The notes under the pieces: model-generated
The model's input: the letters and a program-made list of their open reading frames with translations, nothing else
Databases searched by the model: none
What the model was told of the DNA's origin: nothing
Source of the DNA: Methanobacteriota archaeon
GTDB taxonomy: Archaea > Methanobacteriota > Methanobacteria > Methanobacteriales > Methanobacteriaceae
DNA: 64,000 bases
Assembly (NCBI GenBank): GCA_963787255.1
Contig: CAWBCJ010000029.1
Span: forward strand, 416,001-480,000
Direction of reading: 5' to 3'
In this document: positions 13,148 through 39,939 of the stretch, piece after piece
Layout of the letters: each line of letters starts with the position of its first letter
Position numbering within the stretch: position 1 is the stretch's first letter
Position numbers and translations under genes: made by a program

Positions 13148-13564
13148 ATGGAAATAATAAACGAACATCAGATTGGAATTTGTAAAGGAACAGATTTAGA
13201 AAAAGCAGTACAGGCCAACTTCAATGGTGAATGCCAGGAAGTAGGAATGTATCTGGCAATGGCAAGACTAGCACAAAGAGAAGGAATGCCAGAAGTAGCA
13301 GAAGTGCTTAAAACAATTGCCTGGGAAGAAGCAGAGCACGCATCCCATTTTGCTGAAATGAACGGCGTAATTAAACCTTCACTTAAAGAAAACCTGGAAA
13401 TGATGATTGAAGGCGAAACAATGGCCAATAATGAGAAAAAAGCAGCAGCTAAACTGGCCAAAGAGTGTGATATTGACCCTGCACATGATTTCTTTGATGA
13501 AAGTTCCAGGGACGAAGGTAGACACGCTAAAATGTTACAAGGGATTTTGGAGAGATACTTTTAA
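13148..13564 (+). CDS. Rubrerythrin-like ferritin-fold protein (no rubredoxin domain)
   Basis: [24 protein letters not shown] and DEGRH di-iron motifs. Confidence 0.88.
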
Positions 13565-13679
13565 GTTTTGTCGTTGCTTACTACCCCTCCACCTCTCCTT
13601 TCCCTTTTTTAATTCTTTAAGGTGGATTTACATCGCGTTTTGCTCATTAATTGCGTTAAAAATAAACTATTTAAATCAA

Positions 13680-25747: not shown

Positions 25748-26140
25748 TTGTTTGAATCAGAATCTATGATTTATAAAATATTTATAAGCCATATTGGTGA
25801 GGATGAAGAGGAATATTCAACATTTATTCAGAAATTATCTTCTGCCCACGATTTTGAATATGAAAATTGTGGAATATTGGAAGATATGTCTGATAAAGGG
25901 CTTGAAGGACAGATAAAACCCGTTGGAGTAGTTATAATTCTTTCAGGATTATATAATAAATATAAATCTATTATTAAAAAGCAGTTAGATATTTCAAGAG
26001 ATTTAGATAAATCAGTTATTGTTATAAGGCCTTATGGTATGGAAGATGTACCTTCAGAGCTTGAAGAGATTGCTGAGGATATTGTGGGCTGGAATGCGGC
26101 ATGTATTGTGGATTCAATTGAAGAGACTTATCCGGAATGA
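25748..26140 (+). CDS. MTH538-like TIR-fold protein (DUF1863/ThsB-like family)
   Basis: IFISH, VVIILSGLY, RPYG.E.VP.ELE..A..IVGWN..CI. Confidence 0.82.
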   Translation: MFESESMIYKIFISHIGEDEEEYSTFIQKLSSAHDFEYENCGILEDMSDKGLEGQIKPVGVVIILSGLYNKYKSIIKKQLDISRDLDKSVIVIRPYGMEDVPSELEEIAEDIVGWNAACIVDSIEETYPE

Positions 26141-26165: not shown

Positions 26166-26340
26166 GTTATACACTTGAAATTTATGTCTTTAAATCATTA
26201 TTTTTAATACTATTTCATAGGGCAGATAATAATGATAGTTTAAATTTACGGATAATCCAATAAATAGTGCTATTAAAAAAAGTTATACACTTGCAAATTA
26301 TGTTAAAAATCTTAAATTTGTATTACTAATTAATGGGGGT
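26166..26340 (+). repeat. Degenerate ~55-60 bp direct repeat, two copies 116 bp apart
   Basis: GTTATACACTTGAAATTTATGT (26166) vs GTTATACACTTGCAAATTATGT (26282), 20/22 identical, with weaker similarity continuing to TACTA.TT.AT.GGG. Confidence 0.7.
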
Positions 26341-26379
26341 AACATCCCTGTAGTGTGGAGGCACAGAGAGCAGGGATGC
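26335..26379 (-). ncRNA. Candidate sRNA, copy B of the GCAUCCC hairpin family
   Basis: GCAUCCCUG/CAGGGAUGU stem enclosing a UGUG-CCUC-CACA hairpin; AATAGAAAA 41 nt upstream and TTATTAAT at -30..-23; 3' end uncertain. Confidence 0.5.
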
Positions 26380-26526
26380 AAGTAATATTATATCTAATAT
26401 AATTAATAATATTTTCTATTTTGAATCCTTTAGCAGCGTTAAAAATAAAGTGATTCTATATAACTAGAATTAATAGCTTCATTTTTTGATTATTGGATGA
26501 AACTAATGAAATGTTCTTTTGGCTGC

Positions 26527-34643: not shown

Positions 34644-37600
34644 TTATGTTATTTGGACGGTTTCATCCAGTTTTTTAATAGCTATTTTGAGGTTTTCATC
34701 TTCAATTTTCCAATCTTTAGTGTAATCTCCTTCCTGGAAACCAAATGACAACTCTTGAGCCCTTACTTCATGGGAAATAAAGCCCATAAATGGTTCAATT
34801 AAATTCTTGAACTCCTCATCACATTCAATAAATACTAATATATTGGCTTCCACGTCAAGATCTAAATCCTTACGCATGTCCTGGATTCTCCTTATAAGTT
34901 CTCTAGACATTGCTTCTGATAATATTTCGTTTGTAAGTTCTGTATTTAAAAATACATTTCCTAAATTGAAATCAGCACTTACGAGATTTTCTGGAAGTTC
35001 TGTTTCAAATAATATATCATTTTCCTCGAGTTCTATGGTTTTATCTTCCAGTTCAACTTTGTAAATCCCTTCATCATCCAAATTCAATTTTATTTCAGCC
35101 CCGTCTGCTTCAGCAAGTTTCCGTATTACTTTAGGAGCGTCACCTCTTAGTTTAGGTCCCAAGTTTTTCATGTTTGGTTTTGCAAGGATTTTGAGGTTTT
35201 CAAATTCATCAGTGACTTCTATTTTCTTTGTATTGGCCTGTTCCATTATAACGGCTTTAAGAGATTCAACAGCACTTAAAACATTCTTATCTTCTGAAAC
35301 CACTATGATTTCTTTTACAGGCCATCTAAGCTTGTATCTTGCAACATCTCTTCCCCTTGCGCACGCTTCTATGATATTTCTGACAATGTCCATGTTTTCT
35401 TCTAAATCTTTGTCAATAAGGTCTTCATTGAATTCCCAATTTTCCATATGCACGCTCTCGGGGGCATCTTCATCCACACCTTTAACAAGATTTTGGTAAA
35501 TTTCTTCTGTTATGTGGGGAGTTATAGGTGCCATTACTTTAATTAGAAGCTTCATAACGTTATACAGAGTATAATAAGCCCCTAATTTGTCAGGATCTTC
35601 TTTTTCAATCCATGTACGTCCTCTGATTAATCTTACGTACCATCTGCTTAAATCTTCTAATATGAAGTTATTTATAGCTCTTGTGGCTTTATGGAGATAT
35701 AATGAATCAAGAGCTTCTGTAACATCTTTTGCAAGTGAATTAGCTCTTGAAGTTATCCATTTATCTTCATCTCGAAGTTTAAGATCGTTTTCAGTGTATA
35801 ATGTTGGGTTGAAGTTGTCTATGGCCATGTAGGTTGTTGAAAATACGTAGACATTCCATAGGATGTTAAACATTTTAGCAACATTTTTCAGTTCATCCCA
35901 TGTAAATTTAAGGTCTTCCCAGGGTTTATTTCCCCAGAGAAGATAAAATCTAAGTATATCAGCTCCATACTGAGCTATCACTTCGTCAGGTTCAACAACA
36001 TTTCCAAGTGATTTGCTCATCTTTCTACCCTCTTCGTCAAGGGTGAAACCATGCATTAAGACTCTCTTATAAGGTGTTTGGTCGAAAGATATTACACCAC
36101 ATCCTAATTGTGAATAGAACCATCCTCGGGTCTGATCGTGTCCTTCTGTAATAAAATCGTAGGGGAACCATTCTTCAAACATTTCCTTTTCCTGTGGATA
36201 GTGTAACGCTGCCCATCCAGCGACTCCTGAGTCTATCCAGACATCTAAAACATCCAGAACACGTTTCATGTCGCCCCCACACGGACATTCAACTGTAATC
36301 TCGTCAACGTAAGGCCTGTGTATAAAGTCTCCTTCCAGCTTTCCTTTAACAGCACGCTCTTTTAATTCGTCAATTGAGCCTATAACAGTTATTTCTTCAC
36401 AAGATTCACATTTCCATATTGGAATCGGAATTCCCCAGTATCTCTGCCTCGAAATAGTCCAATCACGCGCATTTTCAATCCAGTTACGGAAACGGCTTTC
36501 TCCAGCCCATTCAGGAACCCATTCAACCTTATCTAACTCGCTGAGCATCTTATCTTTAATTTCTGTGATTTTAAGGAACCACTGCTGTGTTGCCAGGTAA
36601 ATGATAGGAGTTTTACACCTCCAACAGAACCCATACCTGTGGCGTATTACGTCTTCTTTTAATAAAAGCCCATGAACATCCAGATCGGCTATTATGTAAG
36701 GATCAGCATCTTTTACAAATTCTCCCTTGTATTTCCCTGCTTCTTCATTAAATAATCCTGCTTCATCAACCGGGCAGAATATTGGTAATCCATATTGTTT
36801 ACCTATTTCAAAGTCGTCAGGACCGTGTCCAGGAGCGGTATGAACACAGCCAGTACCTTCTGTTAGTGTTACATGTTCTCCAGGTAATATTTTATGTTCA
36901 AATCCTTTTTGAAAAGGTATTTCATCTAATAGTGGATGCTGATATTCCAAATCCTCAAGATCAGCTCCTTTGACCACTTTAACTATTTCGTAATCCTGAT
37001 CTTCAAATAAAGAATCAACCAGCGCTTCAGCCATTATGTAAATTTCATCATTAACTTTAACATAAGCGTAATCAAAATTAGGGTGTACACAAACTGCCAT
37101 GTTTGCAGGAAGCGTCCATGGTGTCGTTGTCCAGACAAGAACGTATTCATTATTCTCTGAATTCTTTAAAGGGAATTTAACGTAGATGGAAGGATCTTCT
37201 TTTTCTTCATAGTCAATCTCAGCAAGAGCTAGTGCAGTTTCGCATCGGGGACACCAAGTTATCACTCGAAGGTCATTTATAAGAAGATCTTTTTCATGAG
37301 CCTTTTTTAGGGTCCACCAGCATGATTCCATGTATTTGGTCTCAAAAGTAACGTAAGGGTTATCCCAGTCCATCCAGATTCCCAGCATTTTAAACTGTTC
37401 GGTCATAACAGCCTTATTTTCAATTGCAAATTCTTTACATCTTTCCACAAAGTTTGCAATCCCTATTTCGGTTTCAATTTGTTTTTTGCTTTTTAATCCA
37501 AGCAGTTCTTCGACTTTATGCTCGATTGGAAGCCCGTGAGTATCCCACCCAGCCTGCCTGCGAAGGTTAAATCCACTCATACTTTTAAAACGTAAAAATG

Positions 37601-37802
37601 TATCCTTTATTGTCTTATTCCATGCAGTTCCCAGATGTATTCTTCCACTACAGTAAGGGGGGCCGTCTAAAAATGAAAATTTAGGGCTATTTTCCCTTAA
37701 CTTGTTTGTTTTATTGTATATATCCTTATCTTCCCAGAATTTCTGGATACTTTCCTCTGTTATCTTTGTATCATATGATCGTGGGGCCTCTTTTATCGGC
37801 AT
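34644..37802 (-). CDS. ileS: Isoleucyl-tRNA synthetase
   Basis: [39 protein letters not shown]. Confidence 0.98.
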
Positions 37803-38015
37803 TTCAATTCTCCCTATTATTTTGATAATTAAGTAAAATGTAAGAATAAGCTGTTTAATAGAATTATTTGTATTTTCTTATATTTTTCATTTATTCTTGA
37901 ACTATATCTGATTTGCAGATATTTAAAAGTTAATGCATAAAAAAAATAATAACGATAATATTACCCCTTTGCACAATAGAAAAGAATATAAATACCTTTA
38001 ATACAATTATTTATT

Positions 38016-38093
38016 GCATCCCCTATAACAACGATACTTGTTTATTTTACTGATAGTATCGCCTCCGGGGGGATGCTACACCTACTGATTTTT
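38016..38093 (+). ncRNA. Candidate sRNA, copy A of the GCAUCCC hairpin family
   Basis: GCAUCCCC/GGGGAUGC lower stem, CGAUACU/AGUAUCG upper stem, CCUCC in the internal loop; AATAGAAAA 41 nt upstream, TATA at 37986-37994, T-run at 38089-38093. Confidence 0.55.
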
Positions 38094-38497: not shown

Positions 38498-39733
38498 TTA
38501 AAATGTCCTGAGTTTTCCTTTAACTAGCATATCAGTTATACTTGTAATGTCATCGAGCCATAAATCAATTACTTGTTCTACTTGTTGGTTGACTGATTCT
38601 ATTTTGTATCCATCTTCAAGAATCACCTGGGCACTTGCAGCTTTCGGATTATCTATTGGTTTTCCTATCTGACTTAAAAGCATAATTTGTACTTCTTTAA
38701 CCCCTTCAACATTTTCACTTATATCATTAGCTATTTTAGTTGATATTAGATTATATATTTTACCAACGTGGTTAATTGGATTCTTTCCAGATGTAGCTTC
38801 CATTGACATTGGCCGGTTTGGTGTTATCAGGCCGTTAGCACGGTTTCCACGTCCTACAGATCCATCATCTCCCATTTCTGCTGATGTACCAGTTACTGTG
38901 AGGTAATATCCTTCTTCAGTCTTGCAAGTGTGGTTATCTGCGGTGTTAATAAATACTTCAATGTTTCTTTCGGTTTTTTCTCCTGCTAATTTGGTTATTA
39001 TTTCATTAAGTTCTTCTTTTAGATTTATATAAGTATCGCGGTCGTCAATGTATTTAGATACCATTGCAGTGGCTACAGTAAGGGTGATACTATTATCATC
39101 TCTAAGTCCCATAACCTTTATATCTTCTCCAACTGCAGGATATTTCTTTTTAAAGTCTCTTGAGTTTAGCAAGTTCTCTGCAGCAAGTACTATATTTTCG
39201 GTTTCTGAAAATGGAGCAAAACCTACTCCAAATGATGTATCGTTAGAGGATGGTGCCCCTCCTTTTCTTCTAAATACATCTGTTAAATCACCGGAACCAT
39301 GTCCAATCTTACATTCTACAACTGTAGCAGTTTCAACGTCGAGATTTATAATATTTTCTTTTAAATATTCTTTGGCAGCGCTAATTGCTATCCGGTCCAA
39401 TCCCATTTTCTTGATTTCAAGTTTCCCGTCTTTTTCTTCATGAACTTCGGAAATTCCTCTACCGGTCAGGAGGATATCCATGGGCTTCATTATTTCCCCC
39501 CCGCCAAACACAGGATTTGATTCTCCGGCTGTAATTTGAACTTCATCGGTGTTATGGTGCATTATTTCCCCGAATCTTTCCAAATAAGAGTTGCATAAAG
39601 CTCTGCTTACAGATTCTGCTATTCCATCACTTATACTGTCTGGATGGCCTATTCCTTTTCTTTCTACTACTTCTACTTCTTTTTCTTCAATTGGTTTTTG
39701 AATGAGCTTTTCAACAAAAATATTCTTTCTCAT
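38498..39733 (-). CDS. mat: Archaeal S-adenosylmethionine synthetase
   Basis: [52 protein letters not shown]. Confidence 0.96.
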
Positions 39734-39939
39734 AAATAGCCTCCAAATTTTGAATATCCCCATAAGTCATAAAACGTAAATTAATCAAAATATTGATCCA
39801 TTTTTTGTTATTTTTCAAGTTATTTAAATGTATTTGCATATTAATATGGGATAGAGTACAATAAAATTAAGAAAACAAATGAAGAAAGTACTTTTTTATA
39901 AATTAAAAGTTATATCACATAATCTTGTGGGGAGCAATC

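What the first reader, a model, noticed from the sequence alone, without database searches (positions are those of the whole stretch)
37975..38093. Copy A: independently promoted hairpin RNA displaying a 16S-like CCUCC (candidate new sRNA system)
Seen: in the ileS-mat gap, BRE-like AATAGAAAA (37975) and a TATA box (37986-37994) predict a start at about G38016, the first base of an 8-bp GCAUCCCC/GGGGAUGC stem. A 7-bp upper stem follows, the internal loop exposes CCUCC (context AUCGCCUCC), and a T-run ends the unit. Known: the 16S 3' end is AUCACCUCC, and RBS masking by trans sRNAs is established in Methanosarcina. Seen: fprA, rlp, hcp, mat, glyA, leuC and ribH here all use GGAGG. Inference: together with copy B, an undescribed multi-copy sRNA family that may occlude ribosome-binding sites. 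Alternatives: an H/ACA-like guide (ACA at 38078 lies 16 nt from the upper stem, but there is no K-turn and copy B has ACC), a miniature mobile element, or transcription from the opposite strand (G-U pairs do not settle orientation).
Basis: partly seen in the sequence, partly recalled or inferred. Interest (0 to 1): 0.8.

Follow-up and report, generated by a model that had tools for sequence, protein, structure and literature searches.

The report
Genus-specific small RNA showing CCUCC
A Methanobacterium lineage carries a conserved gene for a roughly 70-base folded RNA that holds the ribosome's own CCUCC sequence unpaired, so it probably binds ribosome-binding sites on messenger RNAs, but no transcript or target has been shown.

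Summary
At 38016-38085 (+), behind a BRE/TATA-like promoter and before a T-run, lies a two-helix hairpin with CCUCC unpaired in its internal loop.

It is a single-copy syntenic gene in 22 of 23 genomes of one Methanobacterium genus. It was not found in 141 genomes of 26 other genera of the order. All 237 base-pair cells are kept. The four variable pairs change only to G-U, which fixes the + strand.

"Copy B" exists at 26379-26325 (-). It shares the promoter spacing, the GCAUCCC/GGGAUG closing stem, GCCUCC and a C-rich tail. Models of A and B find each other. B occurs in only 8 of 23 genomes, so this is a pair of paralogues, not a large family.

No Rfam family matches.

The H/ACA alternative fits in shape and ACA box. 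It fails on the K-turn, on the ACA spacing (15-17 nt) and on an rRNA or tRNA target.

Most likely this is an undescribed trans-acting RNA that mimics the 16S 3' end and pairs with GGAGG-type sites. Transcription and targets remain untested. Interest is moderate.

The parts
37976..37994 (+). BRE-like ATAGAAAA (37976-37983) and TATA-like ATATAAATA (37986-37994). The BRE-like motif starts 40 nt before the first stem base.
   Evidence: This stretch is 0.84 identical among orthologues, against 0.43 further upstream. The same motif sits at the same 40-nt spacing before copy B. The motif type is common in this genome, with 46 loose-pattern hits, several of them just before genes.
38016..38023 (+). 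Helix 1, 5' strand GCAUCCCC. G38016 is the predicted first transcribed base.
   Evidence: All 8 pairs are kept in all 21 sequences. Three of them vary, and only to G-U.
38024..38031 (+). 5' strand of the internal loop, UAUAACAA.
   Evidence: A10, U11, A13 and A15 are invariant. Positions 9, 12, 14 and 16 vary.
38032..38037 (+). Helix 2, 5' strand CGAUAC. U38038-A38055 adds a 7th pair in this genome only.
   Evidence: One orthologue has A-U changed to G-U. L022 shows CGAUAU/AUAUCG, read by eye.
38038..38055 (+). Apical loop. The 5' half is U-rich and variable. ACUGAU (38049-38054) is conserved.
   Evidence: UGAU is invariant, and ACUGAU is present in 18 of 21 sequences. The role of this motif is unexplained.
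38056..38061 (+). Helix 2, 3' strand GUAUCG.
38062..38068 (+). 3' strand of the internal loop, CCUCCGG. CCUCC (38062-38066) is unpaired. The context AUCGCCUCC matches the 16S 3' end AUCACCUCC in 8 of 9 positions.
   Evidence: CCUCC is present in 21 of 21 sequences. The 1-3 nt after CCUCCG vary in sequence and number.
38069..38076 (+). Helix 1, 3' strand GGGGAUGC.
38077..38085 (+). Conserved single-stranded 3' tail UACACCUAC. It holds ACA (38078-38080) and CACCU, which is also part of the 16S 3' end.
   Evidence: ACA is present in 20 of 21 sequences and AUA in 1 of 21. ACACCUAC is present in 20 of 21.
38089..38093 (+). T5 run, the presumed archaeal oligo-T terminator.
   Evidence: A run of four or more T follows the tail in 16 of 21 orthologues. 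The bacterial-type terminator scan found none, as expected.
26325..26419 (-). Copy B, the paralogue. It consists of ATAGAAAA (26419-26412), stem GCAUCCCUG (26379-26371) pairing with CAGGGAUGU (26350-26342), a 20-nt loop with GCCUCC (CCUCC at 26361-26357), and the C-rich tail UACCCCCAUU.
   Evidence: The fold is -15.8 kcal/mol, z -2.99. The closing pair is G-C, G-U or A-U in different species.

Best explanation
Copy A is the gene of a small non-coding RNA of about 70-75 nt. It is confined to one Methanobacterium genus-level clade; the closest named relative is M. oryzae. It is transcribed on the + strand from its own BRE/TATA promoter, starts at or next to G38016, and ends at the T-run.

The RNA folds into two stacked helices. 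These hold three conserved single-stranded elements in place:
- GCCUCC in the internal loop.
- ACUGAU in the apical loop.
- The 3' tail UACACCUAC.

The loop motif (AUCGCCUCC) and the tail (CACCU) both copy parts of the 16S rRNA 3' end (GGAUCACCUCCU). Copy B is a shorter paralogue with the same closing stem, GCCUCC in its loop and a C-rich tail.

The most likely mode of action is that of an anti-Shine-Dalgarno mimic. The unpaired C-rich motifs would pair with GGAGG/AGGUG-type sequences in the translation-initiation regions of some mRNAs, compete with the 30S subunit, and lower translation.

Shown here: the gene-like anatomy, the structure, the strand, the conservation, the paralogy, and the unpaired state of CCUCC in the predicted fold.

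Inferred: transcription, the RNA ends, pairing with mRNAs, and the effect on translation.
For: Anatomy and fold.

Conservation as one syntenic copy:
- The DNA search finds the full element in the window's own genome plus 20 of 22 relatives of the genus.
- The covariance model adds G003.
- IleS starts nearby in 21 of 21 loci.
- The element lies downstream of mat in the 4 of 80 mat loci that carry it.

Selection on the RNA and its promoter rather than on the spacer: identity is 0.88 and 0.84, against 0.43 and 0.51 in the flanks.

Structure and strand: 237 of 237 cells are paired. Four pairs vary, and all change to G-U. On the other strand these would be A-C mismatches.

Paralogue:
- Only two loci in the genome share GCAUCC..GGAUGY plus the UAYNCC tail.
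- Model R1, built from A, finds B at E 0.0047.
- Model R2, built only from B, finds the A locus in 19 of 23 genomes at E 0.002-0.19.
- The promoter-to-stem spacing is 40 nt in both.

The motif:
- CCUCC is invariant in 21 of 21 A and 8 of 8 B sequences, while neighbouring loop positions vary.
- The 16S rRNA ends in GGAUCACCUCCU.
- GGAGG lies within 20 nt before 378 of 2374 crude start sites.

Precedent: anti-RBS loops in M. mazei sRNA154 and RBS masking by sRNA41 (passages read in review PMC5867862).
Against: No transcript evidence. The one RNA run that held any of the stretch covered only part of mat.

No specific target:
- The best duplexes with 2374 crude start regions are no better than those of shuffled RNA segments. 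The 3'-loop segment scores -27.8 kcal/mol, against a shuffle mean best of -25.7 and a minimum of -28.2.
- The top hits are ABC-ATPase paralogues whose GGAGG lies in the conserved coding end of the upstream gene.

A 5-6 nt seed that matches hundreds of ribosome-binding sites cannot explain specificity.

The conserved ACUGAU and the strict helix sequences are not explained by this model and hint at a protein partner.

The hairpin-pocket-hairpin-ACA shape is what an H/ACA guide looks like.
Confidence: 0.4

Rival explanations
1. It is an atypical single-hairpin H/ACA-type RNA without a K-turn. It would be bound by Cbf5-Nop10-Gar1. Its internal loop would be a pseudouridylation or RNA-capture pocket, and the 3' guide strand would be CCUCCG.
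For: - The shape fits the published descriptor: helix 1 of at least 7 bp, loop strands of 5-11 nt, helix 2 of 5-6 bp, apical loop of 8-35 nt, and ACA beside helix 1 (PMC2377435, abstract and passages). Copy A has 8 bp, 8 and 7 nt, 6 bp, 16-20 nt, and ACA 1 nt after helix 1.
- ACA is kept in 20 of 21 sequences, and the accepted variant AUA occurs in 1 of 21.
- The best sub-threshold Rfam match is a single-hairpin trypanosomatid H/ACA snoRNA, at E 0.6.
- Nop10 and Gar1 are encoded in the genome.
- My two K-loop-based scans found no convincing canonical H/ACA RNA in it.
- A descriptor without a K-turn but requiring TATA and a T-run returns copy A alone in the whole genome.
- The 3' guide is described as the more important strand. 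Here it is the invariant one.
Against: - There is no K-turn or K-loop, which is said to be present in every archaeal H/ACA hairpin 5-6 nt above the pocket (PMC2377435, PMC7991803). The apical loop has one conserved GA, not two. The strand opposite it varies. In four orthologues 2 extra nt separate GAUA from helix 2.
- The spacing from helix 2 to ACA is 16 nt in 12 sequences, 17 nt in 7 and 15 nt in 2. Active Pyrococcus guides use 14-15 nt, and 17 nt was inactive.
- No bipartite target was found in 16S or 23S rRNA. The best site has 12 of 15 pairs and lies in a variable 16S region, which is about what chance gives.
- None was found in 33 tRNAs either. Only the 3' strand pairs, with the T-stem of two of them.
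- CCUAC stays conserved after ACA, and the T-run begins 8 nt after ACA.
- Copy B has no pocket and no ACA.
Confidence: 0.2
2. It is a protein-binding RNA, acting as decoy, scaffold or cofactor. The conserved closing helix GCAUCCC/GGGAUGC with its ACC-containing tail, shared by A and B, would be a protein handle. The 16S-like motifs would titrate a factor that normally recognises the 16S 3' end, rather than pairing with mRNAs.
For: - The helix sequences are conserved far beyond what pairing alone needs: 10 of 14 pairs never vary.
- The same closing helix and tail type are kept in both paralogues, although their interiors differ.
- ACUGAU is conserved without any pairing partner inside the RNA.
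- No mRNA target stands out.
Against: - No candidate protein was identified.
- No conserved neighbour gene points to a partner. ileS, mat and msrA are housekeeping genes.
- The genus is shallow, so strong sequence conservation of the helices may only reflect short divergence time.
Confidence: 0.2
3. It is not an RNA gene. It would be a DNA-level element such as a miniature mobile element, a terminator or insulator of neighbouring genes, or a transcript of the opposite strand.
For: - The - strand also folds well: -26.7 kcal/mol, z -3.52.
- The element lies between the ileS promoter region and the end of mat.
Against: - There is one copy per genome at one syntenic site, with no further copies by blastn and no flanking duplications.
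- All four variable pairs are G-U on the + strand, which is A-C on the - strand.
- The promoter motif and the T-run are conserved in + orientation.
- The element lies about 400 nt beyond the mat stop and about 210 nt from the ileS start.
Confidence: 0.05

Closest known systems
Archaeal single-hairpin box H/ACA sRNAs (Pyrococcus Pab/Pf guides; PMC2377435, PMC7991803)
   Same: It has a lower helix, a two-stranded internal loop, a 6-bp upper helix, ACA directly after the lower helix, small size and its own gene.
   Different: It has no K-turn or K-loop. The spacing is 15-17 nt rather than 14-15 nt. No rRNA or tRNA target was found. A conserved tail extends beyond ACA. The paralogue B lacks both pocket and ACA.
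Methanosarcina mazei sRNA154 and sRNA41 (anti-RBS sRNAs; known to me from review passages in PMC5867862 only)
   Same: It is an intergenic archaeal methanogen sRNA with an unpaired sequence complementary to ribosome-binding sites. The proposed action is masking of those sites.
   Different: It is from a different order. Those RNAs have experimentally supported targets and expression; this one has none.
Bacterial sRNAs with C-rich or CCUCC loops (RoxS/RsaE, the alpha-proteobacterial 'cuckoo' CcsR/NfeR1, the betaproteobacterial tsRNA/S17). Names are recalled and are also given in earlier notes of this scan.
   Same: The design principle is the same: a short hairpin RNA with its own promoter and terminator, displaying C-rich anti-Shine-Dalgarno motifs, sometimes in two copies.
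   Different: The host is an archaeon with an archaeal promoter and oligo-T termination. There is no Rfam match to any of these families. The motif sits in an internal loop rather than a hairpin loop in copy A.
Trypanosomatid single-hairpin H/ACA-like snoRNA TB10Cs1H1 (Rfam RF01522)
   Same: It is the best Rfam alignment: hairpin, pocket, hairpin, and CCCC/GGGG lower-helix letters (18.4 bits, E 0.6).
   Different: The score is far below the gathering score of 45 bits. The family is eukaryotic. The likeness is one of architecture only.

Membership tests
Archaeal box H/ACA sRNA | Hairpin with helix 1 of at least 7 bp, internal loop strands of 5-11 nt, helix 2 of 5-6 bp and an apical loop of 8-35 nt (descriptor of PMC2377435) | tested here: met
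   Copy A has 8 bp, 8 and 7-8 nt, 6 bp conserved, and 16-20 nt (descriptor read).
Archaeal box H/ACA sRNA | ANA (mostly ACA) directly 3' of helix 1 | tested here: met
   ACA is 1 nt after helix 1 in 20 of 21 sequences. AUA occurs in 1 of 21.
Archaeal box H/ACA sRNA | K-turn or K-loop (two sheared G-A pairs) 5-6 bp above the pocket, which binds L7Ae | tested here: not met
   The loop has only one conserved GA (ACUGAU). The opposite strand has no conserved G-A. The gap between GA and helix 2 varies between 2 and 4 nt. The requirement was read.
Archaeal box H/ACA sRNA | 14-15 nt between pocket top (target U) and ANA | tested here: not met
   The spacing is 15 nt in 2, 16 nt in 12 and 17 nt in 7 of 21 orthologues. 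17 nt was reported as inactive in Pyrococcus.
Archaeal box H/ACA sRNA | Both pocket strands complementary to a stable RNA on either side of an unpaired U-N | tested here: not met
   Scans of 16S and 23S rRNA, the whole genome, and 33 tRNAs plus the rRNA operon gave nothing above chance.
Archaeal box H/ACA sRNA | H/ACA proteins encoded by the host | tested here: met
   Nop10 (79.3 bits) and Gar1 (46.2 bits) are both over the cut-off. Cbf5 and L7Ae were not searched.
Trans-acting anti-RBS sRNA (M. mazei sRNA154/sRNA41 type; bacterial C-rich-loop sRNAs) | Independent intergenic transcription unit giving a small stable RNA | tested here: inconclusive
   The promoter motif, predicted start and T-run are conserved. 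No RNA data cover the element.
Trans-acting anti-RBS sRNA (M. mazei sRNA154/sRNA41 type; bacterial C-rich-loop sRNAs) | Unpaired motif complementary to the host's Shine-Dalgarno sequence | tested here: met
   CCUCC is unpaired in the MFE and consensus folds. The 16S rRNA ends in ...CACCUCCU. GGAGG lies before 378 of 2374 crude starts.
Trans-acting anti-RBS sRNA (M. mazei sRNA154/sRNA41 type; bacterial C-rich-loop sRNAs) | Specific mRNA targets with extended complementarity at the translation start | tested here: inconclusive
   Duplex energies are not better than shuffles. The ileS start region does not co-vary with the RNA, and the GGAGGC of mat is not specific to carriers of the RNA. The gene starts used were crude and came from one genome only.
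Trans-acting anti-RBS sRNA (M. mazei sRNA154/sRNA41 type; bacterial C-rich-loop sRNAs) | Sequence or structure homology to a described family | tested here: not met
   There is no Rfam family at gathering score in the window and none at E below 0.6 in the gap. The sRNA41 and sRNA154 sequences were not compared.
Miniature mobile element | Several dispersed copies, terminal inverted repeats with target-site duplications, variable location | tested here: not met
   There is one copy per genome by blastn at the same syntenic site in the genus, with no flanking duplication in the alignment.

The most novel reading that the evidence does not exclude
Copy A is a K-turn-less, eukaryote-like H/ACA-shaped RNP RNA of a euryarchaeon, and its pocket strand is the anti-Shine-Dalgarno sequence itself. 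Cbf5 would be recruited to GGAGG-U sites. These could be ribosome-binding sites of mRNAs, or the GGGGG-U54 T-arm of some tRNAs. The RNP would either pseudouridylate them or simply clamp them. That would link the pseudouridylation machinery to control of translation initiation.
Probability: 0.07. Interest if true: 0.85.

Novelty: new member of a known kind. Interest (0 to 1): 0.45.

Why it matters
The three full-text searches I made found no paper describing regulatory small RNAs in Methanobacterium or its order. Two returned nothing. The third returned no relevant listing. Rfam holds no matching family either.

A conserved pair of promoter-linked RNAs that copy the 16S 3' end gives a concrete, easily tested candidate for post-transcriptional control in hydrogenotrophic methanogens.

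Because copy A also has the outline of an H/ACA guide but lacks the archaeal K-turn, testing it would also show how far H/ACA-type RNAs can depart from the canonical archaeal form. The host encodes Nop10 and Gar1, yet my scans found no canonical guide.

If it is just another anti-ribosome-site RNA, the gain is a new family for annotation, not a new principle.

Tried and rejected
RNA evidence. Of 24 runs listed, one was RNA, with a share of 0.06. Its contigs lie only on 38629-38850, inside mat. This says nothing about the sRNA.

Second copies by sequence. blastn-short of the element against the window's own genome gave only short chance hits.

CCTCC-hairpin scan of the window. It found a terminator-like hairpin at 13549-13598 at the end of an ORF and the tRNA-Arg T-arm. 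Neither is related.

My first H/ACA descriptor on the window was far too permissive, with 366 hits, and was dropped.

K-loop-based H/ACA scans of the genome:
- The first gave 4 distinct hits, one apparently the 5S region after the 23S gene.
- The relaxed scan with an rRNA-target filter gave a top hit at C29:377239-377304 with 8+8 complementarity to 23S helix 69. It lies inside a conserved ORF that I read as Kae1/TsaD-like (name recalled). Its fold has z +0.38. It is a false positive.
- A GC-rich K-turn-like hairpin at the end of contig C5 has no rRNA target and lies in GC-rich, probably foreign, sequence.

Pattern search in 201 genomes of the family. The six genomes outside the genus with a match were all inspected. 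Each match lies in a frame with 0-1 stops and has no promoter. They are chance matches.

Region downstream of mat in other clades. R1 was run on 80 loci. A CCTCC-hairpin look at 50 of those 80 loci found the element only in the four closest.

Targets:
- The top TIR duplex hits are ABC-ATPase paralogues.
- The ileS start region shows no covariation.
- The GGAGGC of mat is also present in clades without the RNA.

Alternative folds, checked by eye and rejected against the alignment:
- AACAA/UUGUU pairing.
- A C/D-like K-turn between CGAU and CUGA.

Small ORFs in the gap are 40 aa or shorter and were not pursued.

Earlier notes of this scan held nothing on this genome or sequence.

Full report
**1. 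What is there**

The gap between ileS (34644-37802, -) and the AdoMet synthetase gene mat (38498-39763, -) is confirmed by Pfam. In this gap the + strand reads:
- AATAGAAAA (37975).
- ATATAAATA (37986).
- 21 nt of A/T-rich spacer.
- GCAUCCCC-UAUAACAA-CGAUACU-[16-nt loop]-AGUAUCG-CCUCCGG-GGGGAUGC-UACACCUAC-UGA-UUUUU.

It is -24.8 kcal/mol with z -4.47, and 0 of 200 shuffles fold as well. The stem pattern occurs once in the window and never in 100 shuffles. The 16S rRNA of the genome ends in GGAUCACCUCCU. So AUCGCCUCC matches the 16S end in 8 of 9 positions. The tail contains CACCU, which also occurs in the 16S end.

**2. Is it a gene?**

The organism is a Methanobacterium. Its MAT protein is 92% identical to that of M. 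oryzae.

A DNA search of the 23 genomes of the genus found the full element once per genome in the window's own genome and in 20 of 22 relatives, at 82-96% identity. A covariance model (R1) added G003. G015, which is 84% complete, gave nothing.

In a sample of 151 genomes of the order, R1 matched the window's genome and all 9 relatives of this genus that were searched. It matched none of the 141 genomes of 26 other genera, at E <= 0.01 with Infernal's stricter filters.

Around 80 mat homologues, R1 found the element only in the four closest loci. The start of ileS lies next to it in 21 of 21 loci.

Mean pairwise identity by region:

| Region | Identity |
|---|---|
| RNA | 0.88 |
| BRE-TATA stretch | 0.84 |
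| Between TATA and the start | 0.65 |
| Upstream | 0.43 |
| Downstream | 0.51 |

This is the pattern expected of a promoter followed by an RNA gene.

**3. Structure and strand**

RNAalifold returns the same 14 pairs on its own. Over 17 distinct sequences, all 237 cells form standard pairs. Four pairs vary, each on one side only and each to G-U. By eye, L022 also changes the top pair of helix 2 from C-G to U-A.

There is no fully compensated change in the aligned columns, so covariation proper is weak. The genus is shallow. However, G-U on the + strand is A-C on the - strand, so the + strand is the functional one. This agrees with the orientation of the promoter and the T-run.

**4. Copy B**

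R1 with filters off finds, apart from A and its reverse strand, one further hit in the window. It lies at 26379-26325 (-), with 19.3 bits and E 0.0047.

It reads ATAGAAAA, then 40 nt to the first stem base, then GCAUCCCUG-[20-nt loop with GCCUCC]-CAGGGAUGU-UACCCCCAUU. It lies about 150 nt after msrA.

In the whole genome only these two loci combine GCAUCC..GGAUGY with the UAYNCC tail.

A model built from six B sequences alone (R2) finds B proper in 8 of 23 genomes at E <= 7e-11. Its next-best hit is the copy A locus in 19 of 23 genomes, at E 0.002-0.19.

In B the closing pair is G-C, G-U or A-U in different species. CCUCC is invariant in 8 of 8 sequences and GCCUCC in 7 of 8. The tails are C-rich: ACCCCC, ACCCCUCCUU, GACCAC.

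So A and B are paralogues with a common handle and a common displayed motif. "Multi-copy family" overstates two loci, one of them confined to a sub-clade.

The promoter motif itself is a common type in this genome. A loose pattern gave 46 hits, several of them just before genes. It is therefore not a special regulatory site.

**5. Known families**

At gathering score the window holds only a tRNA-Arg. In the gap, the best sub-threshold match is a trypanosomatid single-hairpin H/ACA snoRNA at E 0.6.

I therefore tested the H/ACA reading against published criteria. I read the abstract and passages of PMC2377435 and passages of PMC7991803.

Met:
- Helix and loop sizes.
- The ACA box.
- Nop10 and Gar1 are encoded in the genome.

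Not met:
- K-turn or K-loop. The conserved ACUGAU looks like one strand of a K-turn, but the partner strand varies, and 2 extra nt intervene in four species.
- ACA spacing. It is 16, 17 or 15 nt in 12, 7 and 2 sequences.
- A bipartite target in rRNA, the rRNA operon or 33 tRNAs.

Two further observations cut the other way:
- My K-loop-based scans found no convincing canonical H/ACA RNA in this genome.
- A descriptor without a K-turn, but requiring a TATA motif and a T-run, returns copy A alone.

The same exercise produced a perfect-looking helix-69 "guide" inside a protein-coding gene. Target matches of this kind are therefore cheap. I keep H/ACA as a rival at 0.2.

**6. Mechanism**

The parts under the strictest constraint are the single-stranded GCCUCC, the C-rich tail and ACUGAU, together with the helix sequences.

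Two motifs that copy the 16S 3' end, displayed unpaired in both paralogues, fit best with an RNA that pairs with GGAGG/AGGUG-type sequences. That makes it an anti-ribosome-binding-site RNA. This kind is described for M. mazei sRNA154 and sRNA41 (review passages) and for several bacterial families (recalled, and named in earlier notes of this scan).

I could not find a specific target:
- With 2374 crudely called start regions, duplex energies do not exceed shuffles.
- The top hits are explained by protein-coding conservation.
- Neither neighbour gene shows covariation.

A protein-decoy role is equally unexcluded.

Public RNA data do not cover the element.

**7. Verdict**

This is a real, conserved, undescribed small RNA gene with one paralogue, confined to one Methanobacterium lineage.

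- Novelty is that of a new family within a known kind.
- There is a low-probability but interesting alternative: a K-turn-less H/ACA-like RNP aimed at GGAGG-U sites.

No paper on such RNAs in Methanobacterium or its order turned up in three searches. Searches returned 0 papers. One search returned only irrelevant listings. Supplementary files were not consulted.

Noticed in passing
window 39731-39763 (-): The longest-ORF start of mat (39763) has no ribosome-binding site. ATG at 39733 has GGAGG 7 nt upstream, and relatives align from about that residue. The true start is therefore probably 39733.
   Followed up: partly
window 25748-26140 (+): A 130-aa ORF convergent with copy B has a weak Pfam match to the Thoeris ThsB TIR-like domain (E 8.5e-5, 23.3 bits, just over the cut-off).
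   Followed up: no
window 26200-26320 (-), downstream of copy B: A block GACAUA..UUGCAAG about 60 nt after copy B is conserved in all six B-carrying loci aligned. It could be a terminator region of the convergent ORF or part of a longer B transcript.
   Followed up: no
L010, L012-L017, L019 and L020, about 25-30 nt after the T-run of copy A: In one sub-clade the sequence after copy A reads UAUGGCGCCCC, or a close variant, in 9 of 21 aligned loci. This may be the start of another GC-rich structured RNA or gene that is absent at this place in the window.
   Followed up: no
G000:C29:377239-377304 (outside the window): A stretch inside a conserved ORF, read by me as Kae1/TsaD-like, mimics an H/ACA guide with 8+8 nt complementary to 23S helix 69. 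The fold is not stable (z +0.38). It is a warning about false positives in guide searches.
   Followed up: yes
G000 contig C26 (132.5 kb): This contig has 39% G+C against 31-35% for the others. It holds the only Gar1 match and a second copy of an ABC-ATPase gene found on C29. It may be a foreign or mis-binned piece; the genome is rated 4.6% contaminated.
   Followed up: no
window 13549-13598 (+): A terminator-like hairpin GGAGAG..CCUCCACCUCUCC followed by a T-run overlaps the end of the ORF 13148-13564. It also shows CCUCC but is unrelated to copies A and B.
   Followed up: partly
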